DNA of 64,000 bases from Cyanophora paradoxa CCMP329 (Eukaryota; Plantae; Glaucophyta). Under the pieces are notes generated by a model. The model had not been told where the DNA came from. It saw only the letters and a list, made by a program, of their open reading frames with translations, and did not search any database. The stretch lies in assembly GCA_004431415.1 (NCBI GenBank), contig QPMI01000453.1, positions 1 through 64,000 of the forward strand, read 5' to 3'. A program made the position numbers and the translations under genes. Below are positions 11,796 to 46,225 of the stretch, piece after piece (positions within the stretch are counted from its first letter, which is position 1; every line of letters starts with the position of its first letter).

Positions 11796-12852
11796 GTCCT
11801 CCTCACCGGCTCCGAGTTCCGGAGCTGCGACCTTTTCGGGCTCCGGATCCTGAACGAGCGGCACAACCTGCATTAACGTATGTTAGGCTCATCTTGTTCG
11901 TGTGTTTATGCAGCGAATGCAACGCGGCACTTACAGTGTTGGCCTCCATCGAAAAGGAATCCGGGCACGGCTTCTTGCCGGATGGGTTGGGGCAGCGCTC
12001 GAAGCGGTTGTTGCGAGCGAATCCAGCGCACTCGGCGACGATTCCGGAGTTGACTTCACCAAATGTGCAGCCCAGAATCTGCAGCAGCACGTATATCGCA
12101 GTTTGAAGTCAAGGGCTGAGCAAAAGCACCTCAGCGCGACAGTCGGCCTTGCCGCACGCAACGACGCCACGGCCGGCGCCGCGGATCGTGCACTGCTCAA
12201 CGCGGAGAGACCCGCCATCCGAGAGAAGCTCGACGCACGGCATTCGCGTCATACCGCCCTGCACGCTGGTGCGGAGCACGTGGGCGGTCGCTCCAGGCCC
12301 CCGCACGTAGATTCCGGGCCACGACCGGTGCCAGCCGTCGATCTCGCAGTCGTCTACCTCCCACTGACCCTTCTCGCCGAAGAAGCCCACGCAACCGACG
12401 ACCGAGAGGCCTCGCAGGACCACGCGACCACCCGCGCCGACGAAACAGAGGCGCGGGAACTGGCCGCGAAACTCCAAGGGCACAGACAGCTTGGGGCGCC
12501 CCCCGTTGGCGTCGACGCCCTCACCGGTACCGGTGATGAGCACCTCGCGCCCCGCGACGTCCAGCTTCATTGACTTGGACGACTCGTACGCGCCCGCACG
12601 GACGCGGATCTCAACGCGGCGGGCTCCGGCCGCCTCCGCGTGAGCCCACGCCGCCTCAAAGGTTGGGAACGCGCCGACCCCTCCTCCCTTGCAGACCACC
12701 AGCTTCGCCTCTCCCGAGTAGGCTCGAAGCGCCTGCGGAAGCTCAGAGAGAGCACCGAGCTTCATGATCATGTAGAGCATGCGGCTCACGGGCTTCGGCG
12801 GTTCCTCGTCGTTCTGCTCCGCCTCCTCTTCGTCTCCGCCATAGCCACGCAT
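11796..12852 (-). CDS. Host right-handed beta-helix (pectin lyase-like) repeat protein, spliced; last exon abuts viral DNA
   Basis: LVVCKGGGVGAFPTFEAAW..VEIRVRAGAY, VDDCEIDG, GIYV, VEQCTIRGAGRGVV; GT-AG introns near 12080-12131 and 11870-11932. Confidence 0.6.
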
Positions 12853-16529: not shown

Positions 16530-16832
16530 ATGAAAAAGAAAACTAAATCTGCGGCCGCGGCCCCCGCCGCGGCAAAAGCAGCCCCACCTACAAAGGCGTC
16601 CGGCAGCAAGCCGACGGGCCAAAAGAAACAAAATGCAACCAAGCTGCAGCTGAACAAGAAGGCCGGGGGCGCGGGACCCGCGGCGGCTGCGACGCTCCGT
16701 CTGGAGAATGTCTTTCCCCCCAGACTGTTCCCCGAAGGTGGCGACTTCATAGGGGACGAGCCGGCTATCAGGAAGCAGAAACCGGACGGGGTGCTGAGGA
16801 CCATGACCTTCAACACGAGAGGGTCCAGCGCC
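16530..16832 (+). pseudogene. 5' fragment of LINE polyprotein (basic leader plus first APE motif)
   Basis: MKKKTKS...VLRTMTFNTRG, the APE motif I pattern. Confidence 0.8.
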
Positions 16833-17115
16833 TGTCGCATCCGACTTTACAGTGGATGCTCGATTGTGAGCCGCTAGGGCTCTAGATGATGTATGCAGCC
16901 TTCGTGCTGCTAGGCCGACGGCGCCTAGGCTAGTTAGAGCGCCGCGGTCATTTGTATGCGTGTGTCGGGGTACGCCGTAGTTGGACGGGTACACCCTCAG
17001 TCTATCATCACGGTGGCTAACAGCAGCAGCACTCGCCAAACCCCGCCCTGCCGAGCTTGCACTCCGCACGGGCTTCTCGCGCGCACGATTAGACACACTA
17101 ATCTCGCACGCGACA
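16833..17115 (+). repeat. Left LTR (283 bp)
   Basis: TG...CA ends, 6-bp terminal inverted repeat, no differences from 33844-34126 seen by eye. Confidence 0.95.
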
Positions 17116-17137
17116 GGCGCCACTGCCGGGAATCGAA
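17116..17137 (+). promoter_or_regulatory. Primer-binding-site-like sequence complementary to a tRNA 3' end
   Basis: GGCGCCACTGCCGGGAATCGAA is the complement of TTCGATT-CCCGG-CAGTGGC-G-CC (T-loop, T-stem, 7-nt acceptor strand, discriminator, CC); immediately follows the LTR. Confidence 0.8.
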
Positions 17138-18187
17138 AAAGGCTCTCGCCCGGCGGGTGCCGGTACGACTCCAGTGTGTAGTGCCCAGGGGGCAAGGTCC
17201 AACTTCGGGCCGGCGGCCCAGGCAAACCCGCACGAGGCGAGCGGTACGGAGACAGAAGCCGAGGGGGGCCCTGCCCTCATCGCGCAGCACGTTAGCCGCA
17301 AGAGCGCACGCTGCAACAGCAACGCGGGGCGTAGCGTCGCGATGGCGCTCGATAGCCCACAGCAATATGCCCGTCCCAGCGCTTAGGGATATGCAGCCCG
17401 TCGTGCGACGCTGCCTAGGCACAAGCCGCGCTCCCACAGCAATTGCACGGCATCGAATCGGGGGACCCCGACGGCGGTGGAGCTAGGGATCTCCAGGGCG
17501 AGGCTAGGCGCCGCCCACAGGGCTCAAACCACCGTCACTCGTGACGGCAGGTGCCCTGCCCGACCCGTGCATGCACGTCCATTGCGAGGGGGACGTGACC
17601 CTCCCAGGCGAACTGCCACCGAGCGTCCCCGGTGCAGAGCCCTGAATGGGGGAATTTTTGCGTCCCCAGTCGTCGTACCCGGAGTGGGATCCGGCGTAAC
17701 GACCGCCTGCGTGTACCCCCACCGGCGCAAGGCGCGCCCTGGTACACCGCCAGGTCTTACACGGAGGGGGAATGGACATCCCCTGTCGCTGTACCCGAGG
17801 CAGAACTCGGCGTCACAGCCGCCTACCGACCCTTCTGCAGACGCGAGGCGCGTCCTAGGGCTCGGCTAGGTCTTCGGAGGGCCCCAGCCCTGTCACCGTG
17901 CCGAGCTGTGCTCAAGGCCACCGGCCGCCCGCGGCTCATCCAATTTGCCCGGGTCTTTACAAGGGACTCGCACCCTGTCACCGCGCCGAGCTGTGCTCAA
18001 GGCTGACGGCCGCCCGCAGCCTCTTCTCTCGGCTCGGGGCTTTCGCGTTGTGCGCGGGGCTCTGAGGCCCGTCGATCCAGCCCGCCTCGGGCGATCTCTT
18101 GCTCAGCGCTGCCAAGGGGCTAGCGCAGCCGCTCTCATGTCCTTGCCCTCGCGTGGGGTCGGGACGCGGCTCGGAGCCGGCTTTCCC

Positions 18188-19715
18188 TTAAGCCGCTCCC
18201 GCCGGAGCCGCCGGCGCTGCGGCCGCGGCAGCCGGCCCACCCGCCGCCTTGGGCCGCCCTCGGGCCGGCCGTGCAGGCGCGTTCGCGTCTCGCACGCGGA
18301 ACGGGATCATGCAGTCGATATGCACGATCGTCTCACGGGTGTCGCGCGCCTTCTGGCGGCCGGCGCCCACCGCGCCGTAGGGCCGCGCAAGGCCACGTAC
18401 GACGTACGTGTACCCGCCCGGGTGCACGCTCATGACGGTGAAAGGGCCGACCCAGGAGTTGAACAACCCTTGTCACGGTCGCCCAGCCAGCACAGGACTT
18501 TGTCGCCCACGCCGAAGCGGCGGCGGTCCGGCAGGTCACCCGTCCGGTGCACCATTTGGCGGCGGTACCAGCGGCGGTACTCGCGCACTGCAGCCTCGCG
18601 GCTCTTCGCGGAACGCACTACGATTGACACGTAGTCGGCGTAGCTAAGGGTGTCGAGCATCTCGACCCCGAAGCGCACGTCCGCGGGCAGCGTGAGCTCG
18701 TGCCCCAGGTGCAGGAGCGCGGGCGAGTAGCCCGTGGCCGCGTGCACGGTCGTGCGGAGCGCCAGCTGCACCTCGTGCACGTGCTGGTCCCACTCGTGCA
18801 TCGGCTCGCGCTCGGCGCGGCACGCCGCGTGGAGCAGCGTCTTCACGACGCCCCCCAGCCGCTCTACCAGCCCATTCGTCGAATGGTGGTACGCAGCGGC
18901 GTAAATGAAACGAGTCCCGAGCTTCCGGAAGTACTCGTTGAACGGGCCGCCCTTCAGGCTGGACCCGTTGTCCATGAGGAGGCGCAGCGGCACGCCCTCA
19001 TTCGAGACGAAGTCTCGGCCCATTTCGAGCATGGACCAGCCGTCCAGGTCGGCTTTCGGGTACAGCCGCGTGTACTTGTCCCACGCGTTCACCCAGGCAA
19101 CCAAATACCGGTTGCCGCGCGGCGTCGGGTCAAGGTGGAACACGTCCACCTGCCACAAGTCATTCCGGCCCTCGGCCTCGATGACTGCGATCGCGGTTCG
19201 CCGCGGCTTCACAGCCTTGGCGAACTGGCAGCAATGGCAGCTCCGCACGTAGCGAGCGACTGCCGCAAGCATGCCCGGCCACCAGAACCTCAGCAGGATC
19301 CGGCGGGCGACGATCGAGGCGCCGCGGTGGCCCCACCCATCGTGGTACGCGTACAGGACGCGGTCCTGCCAGGACTCAGGCAGGACGGGCACGAAGCGCC
19401 CGTGGGGCGCGGCGGGCGGCGGACGAGCACGCCGTCTGTGTCCACGTCAAATTTCTGGGCGAATTTGACGAAGGCCGCCTTGGCCTGACTGCAGAGGTAG
19501 CAGTCGCCCGTCTGGCAGGAGGCGCGCGTGCAGCGCGCCTCGTTCACGCCGTTCTCGTGCCAGGAGAACAGCTTGCGGCACAGCGAGTCCGCCTTCTGCG
19601 CAGCGAGCAGCCGGACTCGCCGCGCGGGGAACATGTGGCGCAGGGCCTCGGGCAGGGGCCCGTCAAGGGAAGGCGGCGGCGCGCAATCCCAGGTGTCCTG
19701 GACCAGCTCCAGCAA
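18188..19715 (-). CDS. Ty3/Gypsy integrase (frameshifted)
   Basis: HHCC (YHDGWGH..CHCC), WQVDVF, MDNGS, NGLVERL, C-terminal GDKVL and WVGPF motifs. Confidence 0.95.
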
Positions 19716-20984
19716 GCGCGGCTTGCGGCGGTCTCGGACCTCGCCCAGCTCAGGGCCAGGGGCGATGGCGCTGGACGAGAGGAGCTCCCGTTCCAGGCCC
19801 GCGGCTGGGCCGCCGCTCGAGCCGGCGTCGCCGCTCGAGGGCGCCTCAGGGGCAGCCGGCGGCTCAGATGAGCCCGCTGTCGCCGCAGTGGTCGACGCAG
19901 CCGCGGAGGACGACGCCGCCGGGCGCCGCCCTCGGGCCCCTCGTCGGGATCGTCCTGACGGGGGTACAGCGGCGGGCCGCAGCGCCAGTGGCGCGGGTTG
20001 TCGGCCTTGCGGGGCGTCTTGCCCCGGCGCGGGGCCTCAGGCGGACGCTGGTCGCGCGGCAGGGGCGCGACAGGCCCCTCGTAGCGCCGCGGTCCCGACG
20101 GGAGCCGGCGGCGTACGCGATCGAGGAGGGTAACGGGGAACCCGTCCTCGTCGAGCTCAAGCTCGGACGCCTCGCGCGGGGCCTCAGGCCCCGGCACGGG
20201 CGGGGCGACCTCGCCATCGGAGCCCAGCTCCATGGGGTCGGCCTCGGGAGCCGGCGGTGGGCTCGGAGAGCGCGGGGCCGGCGGCAGGCCCTGCTCGACA
20301 GCGAGGCGGTGCCACTCGTCAACCTCCTGCCGCATCGCGGCCCAGGTGGTCGGCTTGCGGCCGCGCCGGGTCGGCGGGCCGGCCTGCGGCAGCTGCAGGG
20401 CTGCGGGCAGGGGCGCCTCCTGCCCAGCGGCAGGGGCTCGGGGTTCGGGCGACGCCGGGGCCCCTGGGGCTCGTCTTCGGCGTCCGCCGGCGCGGCTCTG
20501 GGCGCGCGCTCGGAGAGGGAGACGGGCTCATCGTCGGAGCCCTCTCGGAAGGCCTCAGGCGGCGCGCGCGTCCGGCGTGGACGCGGCCCCTGGGCGGGCT
20601 GGACGTCTCGCCTCGCGGCGGGAGCGCCCTCGAAGGCGAGCTGGCGCCGGAGACGGGCCTGTCGCCTCGCGACGAGGATCTCCGCCCGACTCGGCGGGGC
20701 CGCCGGCGTTTCGGCCTCGGCGGGCCCAGGCGCATGGGCGGGGCCCGGCAGCGCGGCCTCGTCCGGCTCATCAGCCAGCTCGGTCAGGCGGGGGCCCGGC
20801 GGGGCTTCCACGGCAACCCGGGCGTCCGCAGCGCCCTCGGCGTCCAGAGCGACTGCAAACAGCGGCAGCGGCTCATCGAGGTCGCCGGGCTGGGGCACGC
20901 CATGCCCCGCAGCGCCAGCCAGCGCGTCAGGCGCGGCTGAGCTGCCGTCGGCGCCGCCAGGGGCGAGAACCGGGTGGTTCAACG

Positions 20985-22800
20985 GGGGCCGCGAGCAGGC
21001 GTCGGGCCCTCCGTTATTGCGCCCCGCGCGGTACTCTACGACGAAGTCGTAGGACTGCAGGAGGAGGGACCAGCGTCCCAGCCTCCCAGAGGTCGCCTCG
21101 CGCGAGCGCAGCCACTGGAGCGCTTGGTGGTCCGTCCGGACCAGGAACTGGGGCCCTCCCAAGAGGAAGTGCCGCCAGTATTTTATTGCCCATACAACCG
21201 CCAAGCACTCGAGCTCGGTGGCGGTGTAATTCCGCTCAGCGGGCGCCAGCGTTCGGCTGATGAACGCGATGGGCCGCTCACGGGCGGGCGAGCCGCCGTC
21301 GGACTGCGACAGGATCGCGCCGATGGCGTACGTCGACGCGTCGGTCGACAGGATGAAGGGCCGCTCGAAATCCGGGTACCCGAGTACCAGATCCTCGAGC
21401 AGGGCAGCCTTCAGCGCCTCGAAGGCGGCTTGGTGGACCTCGGTCCATTGCCACACGGCGTCCCGAAGCAGCAGGCGCTGCAAAGGGTGGGTGACACGGG
21501 CAAACCCGTTCACGAACCGCCGGTAGTACCCGGCCAAGCCCAGGAACGACCTCAATTGGTCAGCGTTCGCTGGCGGCGGGTACTGGCGAATGAACGCCAG
21601 CTTCGCGGGGTCCTGGCGGATCCCCTCGGCCGAGACGAGGTGCCCGAGCAGGGCAACCTCAGCCACCCCGAAGCGGCACTTGGAGGGCTTCAGGCGCAAG
21701 TTCGCCGGCATTATAACTGCACTTTTTGACATTTGACGATTTCTGCCAATAGTTGTGTCAATACTATTGCAGCGTCAATACTATTGACGCGTCAAAAGTT
21801 TTGGCAAGAATCGGGCAAGAGTTGGGTCAATACTATTGCAGCGTCAATACTATTGACGCGTCAAAAGTTCTTGACGCTGCAATAGTATTGACCAAAGTTT
21901 CGTCAAAAACTATTGACGCGTCAATAGTATTGACGCTGCAATAGTATTGACCGAACTCTTGCCCGATTCTTGCCAAAACTTTTGACGCGTCAATAGTATT
22001 GACGCTGCAATAGTATTGACCAAAGTTTTGTCAAGAACTTTTGACGCGTCAATAGTATTGACGCTGCAATAGTATTGACCCAACTATTGGCAGAAATCGT
22101 CAAATGTCAAAAAGTGCAGTTATACGGCATGATTGCGCGGAACAAGGCCTCGAGGTCCAGCAGGTGCTGGGGCACGCTCGGCGAGAACACCGTTATATCG
22201 TCGATATAAGCGGTGACGCAAGTCGTGAGCAGGGGGCCGAGGATGGCGGTCACGGCGCGCGAGAAGGCGGCCGGCCCGTTGGTCACGCCAAACGGGGTCA
22301 CGCGCCACTCGTAGTGGCCCCAGGGCACCACGAAGGCCGTGTACTGCCGGGACGCAGGGTCCAGCGGCAGCTGCCAGAAGCCCGCCGTCGCGTCGACGGT
22401 CGAGAAGATCATGGACCCCGCAGGCGGTCCAGCTGATCGTCGATCCGCGGCAGCGGAAAGACGTCGCGCTCGGTGATTGCATTTAAGCGTCGGTAATCGA
22501 CGCAGAACCGCCAGGTGCCGTCCTTCTTAGGAGCGAGCACGACCGGCGAGCCGTAGGCGGCTTGCGAGGGCTGGATCAAGCCCAGCTCAAGGAGCCGCTT
22601 TATTTCAGCACGGGCGAAGGCCTCGGCGTGCGGGCTTACACGCCGCGGGGGCGTGAAGACGGGCAGCCGTGAGGTCAATCGGATCACGTGCTCGTAGTGG
22701 AGGAGGTTGGCCGTGCCCTCGGTGGCCGTGACCGAGTCGGCGAACGCGCACGAATAGCGCTTGAGCAGAGCCTCGAGCTCGGCGCGTTCAGCAGTGCTCA
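20985..22800 (-). pseudogene. Ty3/Gypsy reverse transcriptase-RNase H, interrupted by a MITE
   Basis: SPVVLAPKKDGTWRFCVDYRRLN, DATAGFWQL, PFGVTNGP, YIDD, KCRF, LLGH, FLGLAGYYRRFV, TDAS, ELECLA, TDHQAL, PDACSR. Confidence 0.95.
21712..22124. mobile_element. 413-bp foldback/MITE-like insertion with 6-bp TSD
   Basis: 44-bp perfect TIR TATAACTGCACTTTTTGACATTTGACGATTTCTGCCAATAGTTG; CGGCAT duplicated at 21706-21711 and 22125-22130; removal restores FRAIMPANLRLKPSKC. Confidence 0.95.
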
Positions 22801-23689
22801 TCGCCGGATGCGAGCCGCATTCCGGGATTTTAGCACGTGCTCGGTTCCACTCCTCCTCTTCGGAAGACGACGTCCCCGTCGTTTCCGGAGGCGCCCGCGG
22901 GTGGCCGCCATGGGAGGGTCCAGGCGCTGGGCCCGGAGGGGCGGCTCGCAGCGGCGCCTTGCCCTTGTCCCTGCCGCGCGCGGCAGAGGACTCGGCTGCA
23001 GAAGGCGCGCCCGGCGCGTCCGTGGTACGGACGGAGCAGCCAGGGCCGTCCAGCGGCGCTGGTGCCGTCGCGGGGCGGGCAGCAGCTGTGCTCGGCGCAG
23101 GCGCCGGCTGCTCGGCTGCGTCGGCAGCGAGATTTATTTGATCCCCGGAGGGATTGGTTGGGACTACGTTAGCCCCTTGACGCGCAACGCGCGCCGCGCG
23201 GGCGCGGCGGCGTGCGGCGCGCTCGGCGCGGCGGGCCGGCCGGGTTCGTTCACGCTCCTCTGGGGAGGTCCAACCCGGGTACCCGACGTCGCGCTCGAGC
23301 TCCGAGTCGGTGTCGGACGACACCGGCTCATCGTGGAGCGCGAGGCCCTCCATCGTGACGATGGGGACCTCATGGCCCTCGTCGTCGTCGTCGCGCATCA
23401 TGCGGACAAACAGCGGAGGTGCGCTCGGCGCAGGCTCCTGCCCGGTGGCTGCAGTCGCATCGGACTGCCGGGCGGCGGGTGCCGCAAAGATAGGCCCGGG
23501 GCAGGGTGCTGGGGCGTCGGCGCGCCCTCAGCTGCCATATAAGCCGCGGCCGTTCGATTGGCCCGGCGACGCATCGAGCGGAAGCCTTGGCCCCGTTTAG
23601 GGTAAAAGGCTCGCAGCGTGCGGATGAAAGTATCGGCGACTGCGCGCACGGGCGCATCGTCTGGTGGCGGGTCATACCCGAAGTCGCCG

Positions 23690-24400
23690 GGCGGCAGGTT
23701 GTTAGCCTCCGCCACCGCAACAACGGCCCCTGCTGGCAGCAGGACGGGCTCATTGGCGGGATTTAATAGCCGCACATGCAGGCTGCCGCCCGCGGCTGGG
23801 CGCCGGTGCAGCTGGTGGGGCGCGAGTACCCCGAGCGCCGACAAGGAGTCGGGCGCCGGCCCGACGGCGAGCGTCGGAGCCTGGTCCGCAGGCGGCGCAG
23901 GGCCGTCAATCACGCAGCGGACCATCCACTCGCGCGCGTCCTTCAGGACGACAGGGCGAAGGACCCGGACAAGGAGAGGCCCCTTCGTTTGTCCGGGCAG
24001 CAAAAAGGGATCACGTGGGGGCGGAATTGCGCGTCGCGCGCGTGCAGGCACCAGCCAGAGCTGGTCGTGTCTATCCGCCCCTCGACCATCATGATCGTGC
24101 CGATGCCCACGAGCAGGTCGGCATTGGGGCCCAGGGAGCCGTCGGGGACGACGTACACGGCCCGCGAGACGTACACGTCACCGAAGCGCAGCACGACGTG
24201 CGCGATTTCGGCCGTGATCGTGGCGTGGTGCAGGAAGGCCCTCAGGACCTTCACACCCGTGTACCGGGTGCCCGGGGCATGTGGCGCTTCTCGCCAACTT
24301 CGCCCATAGCGCCGGTGTCAAAGAGGATTTGGACACGCGTGCTAGCGCCGAGAGTGCCGTCAGCATTCAGGGCGTAGACGAATCCTGGGCACTGCAGCTG
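23690..24400 (-). CDS. Retropepsin protease followed by a dUTPase-like linker (frameshifted)
   Basis: VQILFDTGA catalytic motif, ADLLVG, then VRLLNPANEPVLLPAGAVVA. Confidence 0.75.
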
Positions 24401-24849
24401 CAGGCGCCGGAAATCGTGCGGGCGGCCCGAGATCCCATCGATCACATGCGCAATCGGGATAGGGGCGTTGAGGCCGCCGGGCGGCGCGCCTTCGGGGGAC
24501 TCCGGGACCGCGAGGTCCGACGGGCGGTCCGGGCCGTACCCGGTGAGGTCACCAGGGTCGGCGGCGGGCGTGGGGAAGTGCAGCGACGAGCGCTGCCGGC
24601 TGTTGCTGGCGTGCAACGCCGCGGACCGACTCTGCGGGGCTGCAGAGGTTTTCCGGTCCGGCCCGTCCGTGAGGGGCTGCGGCTCCCTGGTCGCAGCCGC
24701 CAGGACGCTTTCGGCGATGGACCGCGGCTGCAGTGCAGCGCGCGTCGCGAAGTCGTCCTCGCCGTCATCGTCCCCGTAGACACGGAGGACGGCGCGGGCG
24801 CCAGGACGGCAGCGGCCCTCGGCCTGGCGCGCCTGGGCCTGCCCAATCA

Positions 24850-27800
24850 GCCGGAGCAGCTCGGATTCGATCCGATCGAACTGTTCCAAGCTGGAACGGC
24901 CGCAGCCCAAATCGTCGCGGCGACGTTGAGGGCCGCCCACGAGGCGCCGCTGGGCAGCGTCGTGCCCGGAAGATTGTGACCGGCGGCGGTCGCAATCTCG
25001 TCCAGGACTTCGGACAGAAGCGGCGGGCTTGCTTCGTTGCCAGCCTCGAGCAGGAGGCGCAAGCGAGCGCGCCAGTTTTTGGCGGCTTGGTAGTGGGCTG
25101 CACCGGCGCTGTCGCCGGGCGCCGGCGCGCCGGGGCCAGCAGGGCGGTCACGCCCGGCATCGGCGGCCCGTACATCATGCCCGGCGGCCAATAGTAGCCG
25201 CCGCCTCCGGGCATCTGAGGCATCAGGGCCGGTGGCGGCCCGCCCAGGTGGGCCGCGGCGGCGGCGGGCCCATGGGAATGGCGGGTACGCCGCGGCGTCA
25301 GCCGGCGGGACACCGCTGGGTGCAACGCGAGCCCGCTTGTTGCGGCGCTCGGCTTCGGCTAGGAGGCGGGCGCGCGTCTCCTCCGGCGTGGGCGCCGGTG
25401 CGGGCGCGTCCTCGAGCTCGAGGCCGTGCTCACGCGCGACGGCAGCGAACGCTGCGTCATCGAGGCCGGCGAAGTCGTCGGCGTCGCTCGCCGCAGGCGC
25501 GGTCGAAGCGGTCACCGTGACGCGGTTGCCGTGCATCACGCGCCGGTCCCGGTGAGTGCCTTCACGGGCACGGCCACCGCGCGCACGGTCGGCGGGGGAC
25601 CGGGAGGAGGACTCGCGCGGCGGGCCGAGCGAGCCTCGCGGCGCTCGGCTTCCGGGTGCTGCCGCTTCGCGCCTTGCGGCGTGCGGGACGCACGGCGCCG
25701 TTCAGGCACCGGCGAGCGGGAGGCGCGGGGAGCGGGGCTCGGCTCGCGCGACCGGAGCCCGTTGTGCCCGAGGCAGAGGACGCTTCGTCCTTTGCCTTCT
25801 TGGGCGTCGAGTCACCCCGGACCTGGGCCCGCAGGGTCTTCGGGATGACCTCGGGGCGGCGCCCGCTCCAGTGCATGAGGAGGGCAGCCGACATCCGGTA
25901 ATGGAACGGCGTGACCGCCATTACCGTGGTGCCCAGGTCGGGCGCATCCGCAGGTGCGGGGAAGGGCGCATCCGGCTTAGCGACCGTGTCGAAAGCCGGC
26001 GCCGGCCAAAGGTCGGAGACCAAGAGGCGCGGCGGGCGTGCGCTCGTCATGATGGGCCAGAGGACATCATTGATCTTCTGAACCCAGCTCAGGAGAGCCC
26101 GCGAGGTGGCTTCCTGGCCGTGGAGCATGTGATCCTCGCCAGCATGCGAGAGATGCCGGGCGGCCCACGTGTCACGGTTGACGTGACAGAACTCGCGCAT
26201 GCCGTGCGCGGTGGTACGGGCGGGCAGGATGCGCTCAAGGAGGCGAACATCCAAGCAGCCGACAGTGTCCTCATGCTTTGCGAGCAGTGCGCGAAGCTGA
26301 GTCGTCGCGGGCAAACCCCAGATCTGCAGCATCGCGTCTGCGAGCTGCTTCTTCGACGCCGGCGCATTGTCGAGCCACGATGTGGCGACAGCGGTCGGGC
26401 GGGGAAGGTCTGGCATGGAGAACCAGAACAGGGTCGCCAGCGGAAGCTGGGAGGCCAGAACGAGGGCCGCGTACTCGTCGACAATGTCCGTAGGGACTTT
26501 GTCTTTGACGGTGTGGTAGACAGCGTAAAGCTCGTCACCATCGACCGTGCGCATGTGGCTACCGCGCTTGTCAGCGCTCAGAGTATTGCGGTCACCGCGA
26601 TAGCAGATATCCCGCAAGAACTCATAGGCCGCGGTCGGCCCCACGACGTGCATCTGCACGTTGTACCCTGCCACCGGCGCCGGGCGCCGGGGCTCAGGCA
26701 GCTCGTGGCCGAGGATCCAGCCGGCCAAGTGGTTCACATACCCCGCAAGCAGGGATGCGACGAACTCACGAGTCGGCAGCGGTGCCCACGTGGCGCCGTT
26801 CTCGGTGACGATGGGGCAGACGAGCGGGTGCATCCGCGTCCCCTTGTGCATCGGGTTCACCGGCGGCCGGCTGGACTCGTACCCCAGCGTAAAGACGCGG
26901 GGCGGCAAGCGGTCGAGCTGGCGACGCGCCTCCGCCTCGGAGGGGTACTGCATCGCGACGTGGGCGGGGCCCAGCGTGACGCGGATGGCGTTCTTCCCGG
27001 CGGCGTCGCCGAGGACGTCGAGGGCGTTCGCATCGAGCTCAGCCGCGAAGGCACGCTCGGAGCTTAGGACCGGCTCGCCGGGACGAGCATGCGCACGCGC
27101 GAGTCGGCTTGCGCGACTACGCGGATGCCGAACTTGCGGCCGAAGCGCGGGTCCTTGAACGCGACCACGCGACTGCGCGGTGGTGCACGGTTCGGCCCCG
27201 CGTGGGGGTTGAACTGGTGCGGCCGGTGCAGGTACGCGTAGGACATGCGACACGTGTGGTGCATGACCGTGTTCAGCGTGGCGTACGCCTTCGTGATCGG
27301 CCCGTCCTCACGGAGCGGGAGAGCGGGCTCCGAGGAGACCCACTTAGTGATGTGCTCATCGAGCCCCATCATCGCGAGCACGTAGGGCAGGCCCTGGACG
27401 TCCGCACCCTCGAGGGTGGTCGGAGTCGGCGGGACCGGCGGCCCGTAGAGCAAAATCGCGGCAGGGATGCCGCGGTTATGCCCTTCGACGTTTCCAAGGA
27501 CCGTCGAGGCGAGGCTGTGCAGAGCAGCATCGGCGTCGAGCGCGTCCGGGTGGAAGCGCGTTTGCAGGTGTGTGCCCGGGTTAAACACGGGGCCGCAGTC
27601 CCGTGGCCCGTTCTCGCCGTACATGAGAGTACGGAGGCGGGGGATTGCGCCCCAGGGCTGCTGCTCGGGCAACGTGTTGGTTGCGGAGCCCGCCCCGAGC
27701 GGGTCCGGGAGCAGCACGCAGTACTTTTCGCAGTACCGCAGGCGCTCGAGCGTGCCGTCGTACCAAGTGCGCGAGCCCGGAGGGGCTTGCGGGTCCGGAG

Positions 27801-30800
27801 CCGGGGGCTCGGAGGGACCGGCGGTAGCGGCGCTCGAGGCGGAGGCGGCGGCTGCGGCCTCGACCATGGGCGTGTCGCCCGCGGCGTCGCGCTCGTTCGC
27901 GCGAACGGCGCCGGCCCAGTCGTCGATCCACCGCACGAACGGCAGAGAGCGGATGACGACTTCCGCGCCCTCGACGGGGAAGTCGATTTCGCCCAGGGTC
28001 CAAGAGGCCCCTTCGACGGCGTTGTCGTACAGCCGAACCTCCTGGCTCAGCCAGGAGTCCGCGTCCATCTTTGCGGCGGCCCGCTGAACAACTTCGGAGA
28101 TGTTCAGGTCCGGGGGTACATGGAGGCGAGCTCGCAGACGAGACCCTCGCAACCCGGGTGCAGCGCGCGGACGCGCCCGTAGAAGAAGCGAACTTCTTCG
28201 GGCAGCTGTTGTTCCGAGTACGGAACAAAGGGCACGGTTCCCGGACCAGTGCGTCCGCTGAACCAGCACGACATCAGCCAGCGTGCGTGGGCAGGCACGG
28301 GCTCGACGACATCAAGACCGGGCCCCGTGTTTTGGGACGCGCGCCAGCGGTCATTGACGTAGTATCCCGGCAGGCGGGAGACGTGGAACTCAAAGCGGTC
28401 CAGGAAAACCGCGTCCCAGTGGGAACAGGTCCACCGGTCCGGCTCCGTCGGGAGCTCAGGGCGCGGGGTCAAGAGACCCGAGTTCCAGGCTGCAAGTTCG
28501 AACGACGCAACCGCGCGCCGTAGGAACCGCACGTTGGCGGGGTGCCGCTGGGGCACGCTCAGCTCAAGTCGCTCCCACGCCTCGCGCGAGGCGTCTGCGT
28601 GGAAGTGGCTAAACCGGCGCCACGGGGGCTGCGCGGTTTCTGCTGCGAGCCAGCCCTGGAGTTCGGGGTGGGGCTCGATTTGCAGCAGGAGCGGGTTCTG
28701 GGCCTGCGTGAGGCCACTGTTCGCGAGCCACATGTGCTCGACCGACGTCGACCAGTTGGACGACGGGGCGGGGCAACCGACGAGCTCGAAGAGCTTTGCG
28801 TCGATGCCGCTTCGGACGAAGAGCGCGTGCCACATGCGCTCACGGGCGTCGGCATCAATACCCGCATGCTCATCGGATTCCATGGCGTCTGGAGGCGGCG
28901 TGGCGGCGCCACCCTCGCCCTCATCCGACGAGCCGGAGCCCGGGTCCGAACTGCCGCTGGCGGCGGCGCGGTCGCCGGGCGGGCGAGCAGGGGCACCGCG
29001 GCGGGCGCGCGAGCCGCCTCGTCCACGGCCCTCGGTGGTGCCGGCGGCTGCCGCAGTCGGCTTGCCGCGGCCACGGCGCGTGGTGGCGACTGTTCGGGCC
29101 AACGCATCGCACGAAGCGATGATTTCGTTATGCTTGTCCCACACCGAACTGTTGGTGTGGGGGCCCTTATAGCGCCGGCGCACTTCGCCGTAGACCAACC
29201 GCATGCGGTGGGCCGGCTTATCAAGGAGTGTGGTGGCGTAAACGCCGGACTGCGACATGCAGTAGCAGACCCAGACGAACACACACCACGTGAATTCGCC
29301 ATTGCGAGCGGCGGAATCCATTTCTCCTTGCAGCGCTTTCATGAGCCACAGGAACTCGGGGCTCGAGCGGCGCTCGTTCTTCACCAGGTCCGGCGGACCA
29401 AGGCGCGGGACGGCGCGGGAGGCGAGCAGGTCGAGCACGTCGACCTCGCGATGGTTATCGCGGCGGGGCACCGGATAACGGCGATCGAGGAACGCCTCGA
29501 TGCTAGGCCCGCGCATCAGGGGTCGGCGTCCGGGTGGTGCCGGAACCGGAGCCCCTCGTCGGGACCGACGGGGCGGTCCACAACGACGGTGGGGGCAGCG
29601 CGGTACGTGCCAATCCCAGGAGCCAGTCAGAGAACAGCAGAGAGCTGAACTCGTCGGGGCGCCGCGGGTCAATGAGCCGGGCCATGCGCTGCACGGCGAC
29701 GCGCTCGGGCACGTAGACAACGCGCCACTTGTCCAAATCGGAGCCGTGCTGGACGAGCTCGGAAAGGTTGACGAGCGGGGGCTCGCCCCGCACGCAGCGG
29801 GCGCGGCGCTCGGCCTGTGTGGCCAGGACGCGAGCGGCGACGGTGCCCTCGGAGCTCTTGTCGAAGCAAGCAGCGCCGGCGACCTCACGCAGCCTTGCGG
29901 CATACGTTTGGTACTGAGTGACGGGCGGAGCCACGTCGTGAGGGGTGATCCACTCAAAGAGGCTGTTCTTGCCAAATCCCAGAGCCCCGGAACGACCGTG
30001 AGGGTGCGGAAACGGATTATGGCCAGCAGCAACTGCACGCAGTATGCGTGGAAGTCGCAGTCCTCGTGGAGGATCTCGCGGGCTGCGGCGAGTGCCGAGC
30101 GCATCGCGTGATAGCCCGTCAGGGCCGGCGAGACCGGGGTATCGGGCGTCTCGTCCCAGTCCCGCGGGTCAAACGCCACGTCATACCCGTTGGCATTCTC
30201 AGCCAGTATGCGGGGCCACTGCAAGCCCGGCTGGGCGAGCAGGTACGCGGACGCGACGAGAAGGGACAAGATCGGCGAGCGATCAGAGTCGCTAAGCCAA
30301 CTCGCCTCAGATGCGAGGTCCCAGCATGCCGACTTCGGGGCGTGCTGCTCCCAAGCGGCGAGCAGATCGTCCCACGCGCGCGGCCACGCGGTGTCGAACT
30401 CGAAGGCGAGATCGGGCCAGACGACGTCGGAGTCGTCAGGCGGGGGACCGACCCCAGAGCATGAGCCCGGGTCCTCGGGGTGGGCGAACGCCGCGCGCAG
30501 AATTGCACGCATAGCGCGGCCGGAATCCGGGCCCTCATGCAGGCGGTGGTCCGTGCGGGCGACCACGGCCGCAGTCTCGATCACGCAAGCGAGGTTGTTA
30601 ACCTCGGTGCGCTGAGTCAAGCGACCCAGGAGGAGACGGTCCGCGCGGTTCAGTCCGCAGGCGCCCAGGAAGCGATCGGCAACGATGCCGATCGTACCCT
30701 CGCCGGCAAGTTTGCGCACAAGCGGGATTTGCTTATGCCCCTCCATGCCGTTGGTGAAGAGGAGCCCGACGGCCCTCGACAGCGCGCGAGGCTCCGAGGC

Positions 30801-31280
30801 CAGCAGCGCGTACCACTTAGAGAGTGGCATGAGCAGGGGGGCAATGCGGCGGACAATGAAGCGGCTGCCCTCGCGTTGCGAGTCAACGAGCACGCTCTCG
30901 GTGTGGTCGCCGGGCATGTACCGCAGCCCGGTGGGCGCGGACATTGGCTTTTTCTCGACGTATTCGAGACCCAAGCCCTTGCCGCAGGGATCCAGGGGGT
31001 CGGACTCCGAGCGGACGCTCAGTCCGTCGGCGTCGGTCTCGCCGATTTCCGAGTCCCCTGAGCCATCGTCGCTTGCCGGGCTGGCAAAGCGCAGGGCGGC
31101 CTCGAACTCGGTCTCACGCGCGGCGTCGTCAAGGGCGCCGGCGGCGAGGGTCGAGGCGGCCGCGTCGAAGGCGGCCTGGTCACGCGCCCGGGCGGCGATG
31201 ACGCTGGCGTCGGCCGGCTGGCGCACGGCGGCGACGGGGACGCTGAGGTCCATGTCCGTCTCAGTGCCCACGGGCATCAC
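24850..31280 (-). CDS. Large unknown coding region between gag and protease (overlapping ORFs of 1058, 401, 563 and 230 aa)
   Basis: Long consecutive minus-strand ORFs with aromatic-rich globular composition, joined by apparent frameshifts; no recognised motif. Confidence 0.6.
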
Positions 31281-33172
31281 GAGGACGGACTTGATCGACG
31301 GGTCGCCGCTCGGGCGCCTGGGCCGGGCTTGCTGCCTGCCGAGGAGGAGCTCGCGGCACGCGCGGCCTCGTGCAGGGCTTGCTGCTGCGACTGAACCAGC
31401 AGATGCTGGAAGAATTCAGCCATGTGGGCAGCGCCCGGGTTCGGCGGCTCGGAGCGCGGCGGATCGCCTCCGGCGCGAACTTGGTTGAACCGGGGCCGGG
31501 GCCCGCGGTTCTGCTCAGGGCCATAGCCGCGGCCACGGCCGCTCTGGGCGTTGCCCTGGGCGGAGGGGCAATCCCGGCGCATGTGGTCCAGCGAGCCGCA
31601 GGTCCAGCAGCCTCGCTGCTCATCCTGCTCGCTCGTCTCCTTACCCTTCCCCAGCGGGCGCTGGTTCGGGCCGGAGGCCGGGCCACGGCCGGAGCCGCCG
31701 GCGTAGCCGCTGCGGGCGCCGCCGCGGAACCCGCCGCGGGCTTGGAAACCGCCCCGGGGTACGGCTCCTGGCGGTGTCCACCGCGGTGGGCGTAACCGCC
31801 GCGGTTCGGGCCGGGGTCCCCGCGCTCGTCGCGGTCGGGGCCCTCGTCCTCGCGGGTCGCGCGCTCGCGGCGCTTCAAGCCCGCCCGCTTCTCAGCGATC
31901 CCCTTCACCCAGTCGGCGTACGGGATGCCGGGGAACGGGGCCGTGCCCCACGCGCAATTCCACGTAAAGTGGCAGCGGTCGAGGGCCGGCATCTCCACGT
32001 GCATGCACAGGGGCATGGCGTCGTGGTGGTGCACGGGTACCCAGGTTTTCCTCGTCCGGGTGCCGGCGGCTCGAGACGGGGGCGCCCGGCGGCGCCTTGG
32101 TGCCGGGGGCGGCGTGCACCGATTTCGTCGGGACGGCCTCGTCAGGCTCGTCCTCGTCATCGGCCGCCACGGCCATTTTGCGCACGCGGGGGCGCTTGGT
32201 CTCAGGCGCCTCGGGCGCGACCATGGCCTGGGGTGGCAGCACGGTACGGCAGCCGTGCGTCTCGCATGCCTGGAGGAATAGATCGTCCAGCTGGAGCGGC
32301 GACAGGGCGCCGTCCAGAGCGAGAATGCGCTGGTCCAGCGCAGTGAGGAACTCGCGCAGCGTGCGCTCGTTCAGCTTCGCGAACCCGGCCATCCGAACAT
32401 CAAGGTTCTGATATTCCGGGTCCTCGCTCGTCGCACGGGCCTCAAGCGCAGTGCGCAGGCACTCGGCGTAGTACACGGCGAGGCGCTGGCCCGTCGGCAG
32501 CGTGTGCCGGACGAGAGGCAAGAACCAGTCGTGCCATGAGCGCGGATCCTCGCCCGTGTAGGGCTCAGTGAGGGCCCGGCGGGCCGCGTGCGGGCGCGCC
32601 TTGTGGATCCACGCCGTGATCGTGTCTAGCAGCCCGGGGGCACGCAAGTACGCATCACGCGTGGCCACGATTGAGGCCTCATCACGCGCGCAGCTCTGCT
32701 GCAGCGCGAGGATCGTGGCGTCGTCATCGGCAGAACGCAAGTTCGCCGGGACGAGCTCAAGGCGCCGCAGCGTAGCGCGGTCACGCTCCAGGCCAGCAAT
32801 AGAGGCCTCATAGAGGTCGCGCTTACGCTCGATTACGGCGCGGAGGGCGCCGGGGCGGATGCGCCCGACGATCACTCCTGCAAGAGCCTCGGACTTAGTA
32901 TACTCCTGGCCGCCGGCAGCGTCGGGGCCAAAGAGATACTTCGTCGGCTGCGCCGACTGATAGTTCCGGACGTCCTTGCGGAACCGGTCACCATCGGCGA
33001 GGCGGGGCTGGGCGGGCAAGAATCCGATCCGCGCGGGATCGTCATCAGCCACAGCCGAGGCGCCGGGGGCGGCGTACTGCACAGCAAGTTCGGCCTTCGC
33101 AGGCTCAACATGCGCGAGCGCAGACAGCTGGCTCCGGACTTCAGAACTAAGAAGTTCCGAGGAGTTTGACAT
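31277..33172 (-). CDS. Gag-like protein with CCHC zinc knuckle (frameshifted)
   Basis: 426-aa helical ORF from 33172; CWTCGSLDHMRRDC (CX2CX4HX4C) at 31568-31609. Confidence 0.8.
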
Positions 33173-33831
33173 GTTGTTCTCTTTGCAACGTAAAGCCGCA
33201 AGAACAAGATGCCGGGGAGAGCACTAGGCGCGGGATTTGATCTGCAGCTCGCTGCAGAATCCGGCGCGGGGATCTCGCGGTCACGCAAGAGCGCGACTCA
33301 GGGACACTTAGAGAGCTGCTCGCAGCAGTCTCCGTGGCACGGTTGCTCGCAACCGGCGATGGGACAGGCAATGATGAGACTCTCGAGAGAGAGCTCGGCG
33401 CGTGCGCTTCGGTCTGGGGATGACCCGAAGCCCGCGATAGGCACTAGAGACGTTTCCGGTGCACTACCGTCCAACCGCAAGCGGTACAGGGCGGCGCACT
33501 CAAACGCAAAGCAACCGTGGGGACGGCGCTCGCGCGGAAAGCAGGTCTCTGGCTCCAATAGACACTGGGCAAGGCGGCGCAGCGATGCGCGCTGCGCGGC
33601 GGGGCTGGGGAGAGCGATACGGACTCAGACCCTTGAAGGTTCGATTCCGGCAGAATGGCGCCTGTCGCGTGCGAGAAGGTTCGATTCCCGGCAGTAGCCG
33701 GTAGCTCCGAGCGTTTGTGTATAGCGGCCGGGGTCGCGTTGTATAGAGAGCTCAGGCTCGATCAAATTCCTGGCTTCCCCGGCCCTCTCTCTGTTCGCCT
33801 TCGGGCGTAGACCCGCGCGGACGCGGGATCC

Positions 33832-33842
33832 GAGAGGAGGAG
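33832..33842 (+). promoter_or_regulatory. Polypurine tract
   Basis: GAGAGGAGGAG, one base before the right LTR on the + strand. Confidence 0.75.
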
Positions 33843-33843
33843 T

Positions 33844-34126
33844 TGTCGCATCCGACTTTACAGTGGATGCTCGATTGTGAGCCGCTAGGGCTCTAGATGA
33901 TGTATGCAGCCTTCGTGCTGCTAGGCCGACGGCGCCTAGGCTAGTTAGAGCGCCGCGGTCATTTGTATGCGTGTGTCGGGGTACGCCGTAGTTGGACGGG
34001 TACACCCTCAGTCTATCATCACGGTGGCTAACAGCAGCAGCACTCGCCAAACCCCGCCCTGCCGAGCTTGCACTCCGCACGGGCTTCTCGCGCGCACGAT
34101 TAGACACACTAATCTCGCACGCGACA
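33844..34126 (+). repeat. Right LTR (283 bp)
   Basis: Matches 16833-17115; followed by TSD GCGCC. Confidence 0.95.
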
Positions 34127-34131
34127 GCGCC

Positions 34132-37100
34132 TACAAGCTGCAGCAGCTAGAAGAATTCTGCTGCCGCTGGGACGTCGATGTAGCGGGCGTGCAGGAGCTG
34201 TCGATGACAAGGCCCCAGATGGCCGCCGCCCTGAGGTCGAGAGGGGAGGACCCGCTCCAGCCGGAAGGCGCGATAACGCACGGAAAGCTCCTGTACACGC
34301 TAAAATCAGGAGACGGAACGCGAGGGAGCGGCGCCGCTCTCTGGGTCGCGCCGCAATGGGTCAAGCACCTCACGACGAAGTACGAGGTCCAGGGCCGGCT
34401 GATCGGATTCGAGCTCCGCTTCAAAGGGAACCTCCAGCTCTTCGTGGCGAGCGTGTACATGCCCGCGTCCGAGAGCAAAGCTGCGCATCGCCAGGATCAG
34501 GAGAAGGTCGTCGAAGAACTGACGAAGATGTACGACGACTTCTACGAGCGTGAAAACGCGCACCTGCTGCTCCTGGGAGACTGGAACTCGGTCCCGGTCC
34601 CGTCGAGCTCGCGCATCCGAAACGGCGCCCTGGCCCAGAGCCACAAAGCCGAACGGAAGTGGTGGCACACGATGATCGACTCGTGGGACCTGCGCGACGC
34701 CGGGATGTCCCACGCGGCGAAACATGATGACGGAACTCTCTGCGGAGCACGCGAGATCACGCACCGCACCCCGCACGGAAGCAAGGGCCAAGGGGCGTCG
34801 GTCGGGGCGGCGGCGGCACCTGTGCCGTCAGACGGCGTAGACGAGTCAGAGGACGCGGAACGCGAAGCAGAGGAGGAAACGCCGGCTGACCTACCAAAAG
34901 ATGCGCTCTGGCACGCGGCGCGCATCGATGCAGTGCTGGTCTCGGAATCACTGGATCACGTGCTCCTCAGCGCGCACACGTGCCCCGCGTGGGTCGATGC
35001 GCCGCACGACTCGGACCACTATCCAGCGTTCGCGGACTTCGACCTGAAGGAGGCGGGCATGACAGCGCCGGTGGGACCGAAGCCAGAACCGAAACCCGGG
35101 CCACCAGTATTTGACCCGGACGGCCTGAAGCGCACACAAAACGAGAAAGATGAGCTGAAAAGAGAGCTAAACAGGCAGCTCGGCGAAGCTGTCGGGGCGG
35201 ACCTTGACGCCGTCGGCGAGGGCACGCCGGAAGAGCGTCTCGAACGACTGAGCCGCATCCACGCTGCGTGCGCGAGCCTTGTTCAGGAGGTGGCAAAGGA
35301 ACATCTATGCATGAGGGGCCGAGGGGGAAGCCGACCAAGCCGCGCAACCTGCCGTGGCAGGCGAAGGCCGACGCCAGAGTCGCCCGCATTCTCGCTGCTT
35401 GGAGGAAGGAACCAGGCGGGATCCCGTCGGAGCTGACGGTCCAGGCGATCGAGAAGCTGCTGCACTACGTGACCGCCAGGGAAGGCCTCCGACCCTTCCC
35501 GCTCCGTCCGGCTGAACGGCGCCAAGCAAGGGCTGAGCAAGGCTCACCGCCGCCCGGATCCCCACATGCGCACTCGAGCTCGCACAGCTCACAAGGCTCG
35601 CGCAGCGGTAGCCCCGCGCCGGTCCCAGCCGTACCCCGGTCCCCAGGTACCCCCCCGGCTGATCAGGAAGAGGACTGGGCCGAGGTGCACCGGCGGCAGC
35701 TCAAAGAAGACTGGGCGACCTTCTTCCGGGAGCTGAAAGTATGGCGAAACCGGACGCGGCACGACCTGCAGAAAATCCGCCGGGCGCTCCAGGCGGAGGA
35801 CGTCGAGAGGGCATTAAAAGAGAGGCTAGACAAGTTCATGGACGGCCGCCAGCTCGGATCCTATATAGCCGCGGTGCTAGAAAAGCCGCGAAACCGCCCG
35901 ATCATGCACATCACGCGTGTGTCCAAGGACGGAAAAACGTATGAAATCTACACGGAGCCTGAGGAAGTGAAACGACTCCTAAAAGAGCACTGGCGGAAAT
36001 GGTGCCGGCGCCGACGCCCACGCGTGGGCTGCACCCCAGAGACAATACCGGAAAGCGCGCTGAAGGATAGCATGGGGAAAGAACTGCTCGACTTCTGGAG
36101 GTTGGAATACGAGCCAAAAGCATACGCGGATCCTGAACTATTCCGAAACGACATGTCGGTGCCGAGCGAAGGCGAGCTCGGCGACTACATTAAAACGCTA
36201 AGAAACACGGCAGCCGGGCCGTCGAACTTCTCGTATGCTATGGTAAAGTTCCTATGGGCGCCGGTGCCCAAGCCGAAGCCCAAAGACGGTAAGGGCGACG
36301 AGGCCGGTGGCCCAGCGCCGGAGGGCCCGAGCCCAGCCGACGAGAGCGCCGAGGAGGCCACGGAAGAGGAGCCCGTACACTGGGGCCGGAAGCTGCTGCT
36401 CTCGCTGGTGGCTGAAGCGATCCGCCTCCGGGACCTGCCGGATGCCGTGTGTCAGGGCAACATTCTCGGCATTACTAAGAGCCGGGAGTGGGACGGGGAT
36501 ATCGAAAATAACCTGCGACCGATCACCCTGCAGGAGGTGGCCTTGAAGCTGACCACTGGCCTCCTGAACGCGCGCCTGTCCCGGACAATCCATCAGAACG
36601 GGCTCCTGAAAGGGGCCAACTACGGCTTCAGACCTGGTTGCTCGACGGACGACGCCCTCCACGTCTTTAACGCAGTCCTCGAGGACGCGAAGGAGTTCAA
36701 GAAGCCCCTGTACATCCTGCTGCAGGATATCAGGCGAGCGTACGACTCCGTCTCGTGGGAGAGCATGGAGCTCTCGATGCGGAGGCTGAACGTACCCGAG
36801 GGGTACATCGAGCTCCACAGGAACATATTCCGGCGCCGCAGGGCGCGGGCAATCTCCGGTCACGGCCTCTCCGACGAGTTCGAGCTCGAGTGCGGGCTGC
36901 CGCAGGGCGGTGTCGAGTCGCCGCTGCACTGGCTGATCTTCTACGATGCCCTCCTCTGCGCGCAAGAGCGCCTGGATCAGCACGAGCGCCAGCACGGAAA
37001 GAAGACGGCAAAGACGATAGAGCACTATGCCCACCCGAGAGCTGGGAGGAGCCGGGCACGGCGTACGTGATGGGGAACCCGAGGGAGACCGATGCTGCGG

Positions 37101-44819: not shown

Positions 44820-46225
<1,406 letters not shown>

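What the first reader, a model, noticed from the sequence alone, without database searches (positions are those of the whole stretch)
16833..34126. LTR retrotransposon whose gag-pol is antisense to its PBS and PPT
Seen: gag, PR, RT, RNase H and IN all read on the - strand. The tRNA-complementary PBS (17116-17137) directly follows the left LTR and the PPT (33832-33842) directly precedes the right LTR, both on the + strand. On the coding strand the LTR-adjacent positions hold neither signal (ACTCCTCCTCTC follows the would-be 5' LTR). Known: in Ty3/Gypsy elements and retroviruses PBS, PPT and gag-pol share a strand because one RNA is both mRNA and genome. Inference: either the packaged genomic RNA is the antisense of the mRNA (an ambisense retrotransposon), or the 16.5-kb interior was inverted. 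Matching LTRs and an intact TSD show recent integration.
Basis: partly seen in the sequence, partly recalled or inferred. Interest (0 to 1): 0.9.

Follow-up and report, generated by a model that had tools for sequence, protein, structure and literature searches.

The report
Flipped copy of ordinary algal retrotransposon
In the alga Cyanophora, one copy of a giant jumping gene has its 16.5-kb interior back to front while the bulk of its family is arranged normally, likely because DNA copying slipped twice between the element's primer site and matching repeats near its other end, so it is likely a dead one-off and not a new antisense way of replicating.

Summary
In detail: identical 283-bp LTRs, a 5-bp TSD, a tRNA-like site and a PPT on +, gag-pol on -. 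The ambisense reading fails its own refutation test. In short-read contigs of two runs examined closely, the LTR end joins a PBS on the coding strand (33662-33635) and runs towards gag, at a depth near half the LTR depth. No contig covers the window's right junction. The family is a conventional giant Ty3/Gypsy of Cyanophora paradoxa. This copy's interior is inverted between the PBS and a tandem pair of PBS-complementary repeats before the PPT. A double template switch, likely during reverse transcription, fits both junctions. Chromosomal rearrangement or an assembly artefact remain possible, because contigs drop rare variants. A palindromic insert breaks RT. Two side findings remain: the tandem tRNA-end mimics, and a family PBS with tRNA-Sec geometry (untested against the host tRNA). 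The scan earlier noted giant Gypsy elements in this genome, without this inversion, and an inverted tRNA-end mimic in a fungal element.

The parts
16828..16832 (.). Target-site duplication GCGCC (left), in a LINE endonuclease ORF
16833..17115 (+). 5' LTR in the family's native orientation, 283 bp; carries a T at 17005 where the listed contigs read C
   Evidence: (table 3)
17116..17137 (+).
   Evidence: (table 5c)
17122..33676 (-). Inverted interior (16.5 kb): LTR-end remnant, PBS, 5' UTR, gag-pol, 3' UTR, repeat e1
17140..18187 (-). 3' UTR of the family, now next to the 5' LTR
   Evidence: pol stop at 18190-18188; same C-terminus in gene models of other copies
18188..19446 (-). Integrase (H2C2, rve) and C-terminal tail
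20986..21711 (-). RT C-terminal part and RNase H
21712..22124 (.). 413-bp palindromic MITE-like insert with 24+ bp terminal inverted repeats and a 6-bp duplication, interrupting RT; skipped by high-depth contigs in 4 of 4 runs
   Evidence: (joint 21705 to 22125)
22125..22801 (-). RT core (YIDD at 22208-22197)
24308..24325 (-). Aspartic-protease-type DTG motif
   Evidence: no Pfam hit
24900..31500 (-). Long cargo between nucleocapsid and protease, no Pfam hit; partly colinear with a 4924-aa sister-family gene model
31568..33172 (-). gag from ATG 33172 to the CCHC zinc knuckle
33635..33662 (-). The family's true PBS, on the coding strand; 13 nt between T-loop and discriminator plus G, the tRNA-Sec-type register
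33663..33676 (-). 12-14-nt remnant of the LTR 3' end carried into the inversion
33675..33679 (-). Right inversion junction: 5 nt that repeat the letters following the PBS; 33677-33679 covered by no contig in 2 of 2 DNA runs
33680..33695 (+). 3' repeat e2, a tRNA-3'-end mimic complementary to the PBS, followed by a 5-bp hairpin; the 26-nt spacer that joins it to e1 in the family is lost here
   Evidence: (tables 5c, 7)
33832..33843 (+). Polypurine tract, native position and orientation
   Evidence: (loose end before 16833)
33844..34126 (+). 3' LTR, identical to the 5' LTR including the T at 34016
34127..34131 (.). Target-site duplication GCGCC (right)

Best explanation
This is one rearranged copy of a conventional, multi-copy giant Ty3/Gypsy family of Cyanophora paradoxa, whose interior is inverted between the PBS and a pair of PBS-complementary repeats before the PPT, likely by two template switches during reverse transcription, and it is likely a dead end. 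Shown in contigs: the family reads LTR, PBS, gag-pol, 3' UTR, repeat e1, 26-nt spacer, repeat e2, PPT, LTR on one strand. Shown in the window: LTRs, e2 and PPT keep their places; everything from e1 to the PBS is reversed; 19-21 nt of LTR end plus PBS start and 5 nt after the PBS are duplicated; the spacer is gone. [quoted passage not shown] It copied the genome backwards to 12-14 nt past the PBS, slipped, and rejoined the normal path at e2. This left two intact LTR ends that integrase inserted with an ordinary TSD. Odds: family conventional about 0.95; the inversion a real molecule about 0.85; made during reverse transcription rather than in the chromosome about 0.5 overall.
For:: in both DNA runs a 58-nt contig (depth 4114, 3961) matches 33628-33676 with no difference and continues with 9 letters equal to the reverse complement of LTR 17093-17101, not with the window's letters. 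Contigs of 578 and 357 nt overlap it by 30 nt and run on into the 5' UTR. The same loose end is listed in 4 of 4 runs. Its depth is about half the summed LTR depth (3879 against 4114; 3684 against 3961). No contig covers 33677-33679, and a 79-nt contig (depth 2169) runs 6 unlike letters past 33680. table 5c: in X13 the segment starting at 17122 is preceded by a 26-nt spacer (depth 1958 and 702), not by the LTR; the other end of that spacer hangs before 33680 (X13, X20). Both breakpoints sit in the two longest non-local exact inverted matches of the element (21 and 16 nt). The PBS:e2 duplex is -26.5 kcal/mol, reached by 3 of 3295 interior windows. Both LTRs share a T where the listed contigs read C, as expected of one real reverse-transcription product. 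Inverted proviruses occur in HIV-1 (1 plus 1 with a deletion, 1.3% each; PMC9278108, passages).
Against: No read or contig shows either of the window's junctions, so the inverted molecule itself is not confirmed independently; in X20 the contig across 33680 is unbroken, so no branch to the window's right junction survives there. The family's 3' arrangement is chained from overlapping short contigs and loose ends, not from one spanning read. The tables were cut: one search showed 15 of 30 joints, 24 of 1028 loose ends and 32 of 2370 pieces; one search showed 16 of 23 pieces. Nothing separates a reverse-transcription origin from a chromosomal one except the short LTR-end remnant, and the insert in RT shows that other events hit this lineage. 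The left crossover lies at 1 nt of exact overlap, not in the longest homology.
Confidence: 0.5

Rival explanations
1. The same real inversion, but made in the chromosome after a normal insertion, by replication or repair template switching between the PBS and the e1/e2 repeats.
For: The repeats exist in DNA too; two switches at e2 and e1 give the same product, with loss of the spacer and short duplications. The copy also carries an insert in RT that most copies lack.
Against: It needs two switches 16.5 kb apart on 9-16 nt of homology, and it gives no special reason for the inverted segment to end 12-14 nt into the LTR end (inference).
Confidence: 0.3
2. Artefact: a chimeric long read or a misassembly produced the inversion.
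For: Neither junction is seen in contigs; 33677-33679 is uncovered in 2 of 2 DNA runs. The window has private single-base indels in pol (table 4), a sign of an error-prone consensus. The target LINE is itself repeated.
Against: It needs two separate junctions, each at short homology with templated gains and losses, while LTRs and TSD stay exact; overlap assembly does not create such joins (inference). Contigs drop rare variants (tool text), so one copy beside a depth of about 4000 may vanish. In X7 and X20 the PBS contig begins exactly 30 nt before the base where window and family diverge, a weak hint that another path leaves there (word length 31 as in the index description); in X1 it begins 4 nt earlier.
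Confidence: 0.12
3. A recurrent flip: the built-in repeats invert the interior in a small minority of copies, which keep LTR, a usable PBS, PPT and LTR on one strand and are re-mobilised in trans or make antisense RNA that silences the family.
For: The repeats are family-wide, with sequence variants. The new junction still reads as a tRNA-end complement in standard register (22 nt; the overlapping 18-mer lies in 6 of 12 viral loci inside an ARAGORN tRNA).
Against: No second inverted copy was seen; none of the 15 joints shown (of 30) changes strand; depth leaves little room; packaging signals would be reversed (inference).
Confidence: 0.05
4. One reading: the packaged genome is the antisense of the mRNA throughout the family.
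For: Only the window's own layout. TATA-like words lie upstream of the coding-strand PBS at about 33750 and 33725.
Against: The bulk of the family has its PBS on the coding strand directly after the LTR, and its 3' UTR joins the PPT side. This copy's RT is interrupted.
Confidence: 0.03

Closest known systems
Ty3/Gypsy (Metaviridae) LTR retrotransposons, e.g. yeast Ty3 (PMC5371799, passages)
   Same: TG..CA LTRs, 5-bp TSD, gag with CCHC, PR-RT-RH-IN order; in the family, PBS and PPT on the coding strand.
   Different: This copy has the interior reversed. Ty3's second, 3' PBS segment binds the tRNA, whereas e1/e2 read like the tRNA and would bind the PBS.
HIV-1 proviruses with internal inversions and aberrant strong-stop transfer (PMC9278108, passages)
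   Same: Rare defective integrants with inverted segments; template switching at the PBS is proposed there for another rearrangement (asymmetric LTRs).
   Different: Here the whole interior is inverted at the PBS and a built-in complementary repeat, with both LTRs intact. The passages seen give no mechanism for the HIV inversions.
Ty1 CYC5/CYC3 5'-3' pairing (PMC3681743, passages)
   Same: A 3' sequence complementary to the PBS region of the same RNA.
   Different: CYC5 lies next to the extended PBS; e1/e2 match the PBS itself, come in tandem and mimic a tRNA 3' end. Their function is untested.
Burro/GYPSM1 giant Gypsy elements of planarians (PMC6431247, passages)
   Same: A polyprotein of about 4900 aa with large cargo (sister-family model P0131, 4924 aa).
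   Different: No shared cargo domain was detected (Pfam); short LTRs, 17 kb, algal host; relatedness not tested.
Retand/Tat elements with antisense extra ORFs (PMC11963269, PMC7264820; search listing and start of abstract only; the antisense ORFs are recalled)
   Same: Antisense coding inside a Gypsy element.
   Different: There gag-pol stays on the PBS/PPT strand (recalled); here gag-pol itself is reversed in one copy.

Membership tests
Ty3/Gypsy LTR retrotransposon | Direct LTRs with TG..CA ends and a 4-6-bp TSD | tested here: met
Ty3/Gypsy LTR retrotransposon | Domain order gag-PR-RT-RH-IN with a DDE integrase | tested here: met
   PR by DTG motif only
Ty3/Gypsy LTR retrotransposon (the family in short reads) | PBS directly after the 5' LTR and PPT before the 3' LTR, on the coding strand | tested here: met
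   PBS: one contig per run; PPT side: chained
Ty3/Gypsy LTR retrotransposon (this copy) | PBS and PPT on the coding strand next to the LTRs | tested here: not met
   so the copy is filed as a rearranged derivative, not a standard member
Ty3/Gypsy LTR retrotransposon | RT placed in a named Gypsy clade by phylogeny | not tested
   No tree built; the listed non-host hits are LTR-type pol proteins at 37-53% identity
Chromovirus branch | Chromodomain after integrase | tested here: inconclusive
   No Pfam hit on the 94-aa tail at E up to 0.1
Ambisense retrotransposon (proposed) | Inverted layout shared by the family | tested here: not met
Ambisense retrotransposon (proposed) | Separate full-length + strand RNA and - strand mRNA | not testable with these tools
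   Only contigs were offered; they show no strand
DIRS (tyrosine-recombinase) elements | Tyrosine recombinase, no DDE integrase, usually no TSD (recalled) | tested here: not met
   rve and H2C2 found, no recombinase among 39 element frames scanned, TSD present
tRNA-Sec-primed element | PBS complementary to 13 nt of T plus acceptor stem followed by G73 | tested here: met
   (23 nt from T-loop to end, against 22 for a standard tRNA); criteria from PMC5330540 passages
tRNA-Sec-primed element | Exact match to the host's tRNA-Sec gene | not testable with these tools
   No host genome held; motif not found in the supplements that could be searched

The most novel reading that the evidence does not exclude
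The family is primed by selenocysteine tRNA and carries tandem tRNA-end mimics near its 3' end that pair with its own PBS, closing the RNA into a circle or gating priming. The same pairing misdirects strand transfer and flips the whole interior, throwing off antisense copies that keep LTR, PBS, PPT and LTR in order and could silence or parasitise the family. A truly ambisense family is all but excluded (about 0.03).
Probability: 0.15. Interest if true: 0.65.

Novelty: new member of a known kind. Interest (0 to 1): 0.3.

Why it matters
The headline claim would have overturned the rule that one RNA is both message and genome in LTR elements; the family keeps the rule, so the claim should be dropped. 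What remains is modest. The copy is a base-resolved natural example of a whole-interior inversion at a primer site. It exposes a family-wide pair of PBS-complementary tRNA mimics and a PBS with tRNA-Sec geometry, both cheap to test with the host genome. It also warns that an LTR-adjacent 'perfect PBS' can be a breakpoint product.

Tried and rejected
No whole genome was held, so copies could not be scored directly. No RNA holder listed; two guessed-RNA runs laid 0 contigs on 33590-33760; neither says anything on expression. Rfam at gathering thresholds and ARAGORN found nothing in the window; Rfam at E up to 10 on both ends gave 3 and 3 matches far below threshold. The chimeric 20-mer had 0 matches in viral contigs and 2 in prokaryote genomes, neither in a tRNA. 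The family-PBS 22-mer had 1 metagenome match, with no tRNA call. Its 17-mer had 69 viral matches; 42 of the 70 loci scanned had an ARAGORN tRNA (40 over the motif; mostly near-duplicate Thr, also Ala, Leu, Cys; none Sec), so the isotype is not fixed. Gene models of other copies (26, 16) stop before the junctions and cannot show orientation. My first reading, a family-wide antisense layout at 55%, was rejected. My idea that the 22-nt junction is a direct copy of the primer tRNA was dropped, since it is fully explained by 7 nt of PBS plus e1. A DIRS-like internal complementary region was rejected (DDE integrase, TSD). Tf1-type self-priming from the LTR was rejected by eye: only a 6-nt palindrome in the LTR matches the PBS start. 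Literature: searches listed no paper whose title or abstract start describes an LTR element with gag-pol reversed against PBS and PPT (listings only; 25 of 38, 25 of 31, 1 of 1, 4 of 4 and 11 of 11 shown). Searches found 0 papers joining retrotransposon PBS and tRNA-Sec; one search listed 12 papers, none on this family by title. PMC12789967 passages held nothing on inversions. Supplements that may hold the host tRNA-Sec could not be seen: PMC3531208 and file 3 of PMC7678280.
Full report
Observation. The two LTRs (16833-17115, 33844-34126) are identical over 283 bp, begin TG and end CA, and are flanked by GCGCC on both sides. The target is a LINE: the frame before the element and the endonuclease ORF after it are in phase. 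Pfam and motif scans put a CCHC knuckle, a DTG protease motif, RT, RNase H and integrase on the - strand in Gypsy order (the protease has no Pfam hit). A tRNA-end complement follows the left LTR and an 11-nt purine run precedes the right LTR, both on +. Three things were added: a second LTR-end-plus-PBS on the coding strand at 33676-33635, an exact 16-nt inverted match between 17122-17137 and 33680-33695, and a 413-bp palindromic insert with a 6-bp duplication inside RT. The 21-nt inverted match between the two ends exceeds all 200 shuffles (maximum 14).

Host and family. The RT/RNase H segment matches gene models at 98-100% on several different contigs and further groups at 91-93, 81-83 and 69-70%. 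The cluster members looked up carry Cyanophora paradoxa labels. A sister-family model is one 4924-aa polyprotein whose matches are colinear with the window's - strand. Twenty DNA runs hold 83-86% of the sampled words of 16833-26000. No whole genome was available, so orientation was tested on short-read contigs.

The decisive test. Laid on 33590-33760, both DNA runs give a 58-nt contig, depth 4114 and 3961, that matches 33628-33676 without a difference and then continues with TTAGTGTGT. Those 9 letters are the reverse complement of LTR positions 17093-17101. On the coding strand the LTR therefore leads straight into the PBS at 33662-33635. Contigs of 578 and 357 nt overlap it by 30 nt and run on into the 5' UTR towards gag. 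The same loose end was listed in 4 of 4 runs. Positions 33677-33679 of the window are covered by no contig: the bin depth is exactly half the contig's depth. Half the summed depth of the two LTR alleles is 3879 and 3684, close to the depth of the LTR-PBS contig; summed depth is a rough measure, but it leaves little room for an inverted class. At the other end, run X13 shows the segment that starts at 17122 preceded by a 26-nt spacer at depths 1958 and 702 (table 5c), and the far end of that spacer hangs before 33680 in X13 and X20. The family thus reads LTR, PBS, gag-pol, 3' UTR, e1, spacer, e2, PPT, LTR on one strand. Limits: this 3' order is chained from short overlapping pieces; one search showed 15 of 30 joints (none changes strand), 24 of 1028 loose ends and 32 of 2370 pieces; one search showed 16 of 23 pieces and all 6 loose ends; 4 of the 20 holder runs were laid, 2 of them at high resolution.

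Anatomy of the inversion. Left junction: LTR, 7 nt of the family PBS, then e1 reversed. Right junction, read on the coding strand: e2 reversed, 5 nt that repeat the letters after the PBS, a slip to 12-14 nt of LTR end, then the whole PBS. The 26-nt spacer is lost. It happens to fit a standard tRNA end (22 nt from T-loop to end), whereas the family PBS counts 23. The PBS pairs with e2 at -26.5 kcal/mol, a value reached by 3 of 3295 interior windows.

Mechanism (inferred). Two template switches at the PBS and at e1/e2 produce exactly this product. I favour reverse transcription. Plus-strand strong-stop DNA ends in a short primer copy (12 nt in Ty3; PMC5371799, passages). If that tail anneals to e1 on a second, plus-sense template, synthesis runs backwards through pol and gag to just past the PBS, where RNase H would have left only a short remnant of the LTR end (own knowledge). 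It then rejoins the normal path at e2. Both LTR ends stay intact and can be integrated. Both LTRs share a T (17005, 34016) where the listed contigs read C, which fits one real reverse-transcription product but does not date the inversion. Inverted proviruses are a known minor class in HIV-1 (1.3% with inversion, 1.3% with inversion and deletion; PMC9278108, passages). A chromosomal template switch gives the same letters (0.3). An artefact cannot be excluded (0.12), since no contig shows either junction; but contigs drop rare variants, and an assembler is unlikely to invent two homology-guided junctions inside exact LTRs. The copy is probably dead: contigs in 4 of 4 runs skip the insert in RT, and it has private single-base indels in pol that may be errors (table 4).

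The primer. Both PBS-like motifs are tRNA-3'-end sequence: the 18-mer at 33678-33695 lies inside an ARAGORN tRNA in 6 of 12 viral loci, and the family-PBS 17-mer in 40 of 70 loci scanned (many near-duplicates). The isotype is not fixed. The family PBS implies 13 nt of T plus acceptor stem and a G discriminator, the marks of tRNA-Sec (PMC5330540, passages). Glaucophytes keep the selenocysteine pathway (PMC3531208 and PMC6627142, passages). A standard tRNA with a one-base bulge fits as well. The host tRNA sequence was not found in the supplements that could be searched (PMC13578239 and PMC7678280 were seen only through these supplement searches), and two sources could not be read.

Comparison and novelty. 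The family works like, and by the tested features belongs to, Ty3/Gypsy; no tree was built. This copy fails the same-strand test and is filed as a rearranged derivative. The closest parallels are Ty1's CYC5/CYC3 pairing (PMC3681743, passages) for e1/e2, and planarian Burro elements (PMC6431247, passages) for size. Searches listed no described LTR element with gag-pol reversed against PBS and PPT, and searches found no paper on tRNA-Sec priming; the library lacks most subscription journals. Earlier notes of this scan describe two giant Gypsy elements in the same genome without mention of an inversion, and a fungal element with an inverted tRNA-end mimic at the PPT position; these are unchecked leads.

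Verdict. Observation confirmed; ambisense replication rejected; one inverted, probably dead copy of a conventional giant Gypsy family. Interest 0.3, carried by the tandem tRNA mimics and the possible tRNA-Sec primer rather than by the inversion.

Noticed in passing
window 21712-22124: 413-bp AT-rich palindromic MITE-like insert with internal 59-69-bp repeats, long terminal inverted repeats and a 6-bp duplication, inside RT.
   Followed up: partly
window 1-11900: AT-rich (32-48% GC) Polinton-like or virophage-like segment: A32 ATPase 4644-5531, Prim-Pol/D5 7502-9579, RING protein 10063-10746, 133-bp and 30-bp tandem repeats.
   Followed up: no
window about 16800-16832 and 34127-39937: The target is a multi-copy LINE with endonuclease, RT and an RNase H domain.
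   Followed up: partly
window 33680-33701 and run contigs: The 3' tRNA-mimic repeat ends in a 5-bp hairpin whose stem letters recur in both spacer variants seen in contigs, a sign that the unit is kept across subfamilies.
   Followed up: partly
window 24900-31500: About 2000 codons of cargo without Pfam hits between nucleocapsid and protease; contig depth here is lower than over pol and gag, so subfamilies differ most in the cargo.
   Followed up: no
window 41991-42476 and 49799-49846: A second family of AT-richer repeats, with an inverted partner 7.5 kb away.
   Followed up: no
window 45428-46225: Fragment of an Arf-family GTPase gene.
   Followed up: no
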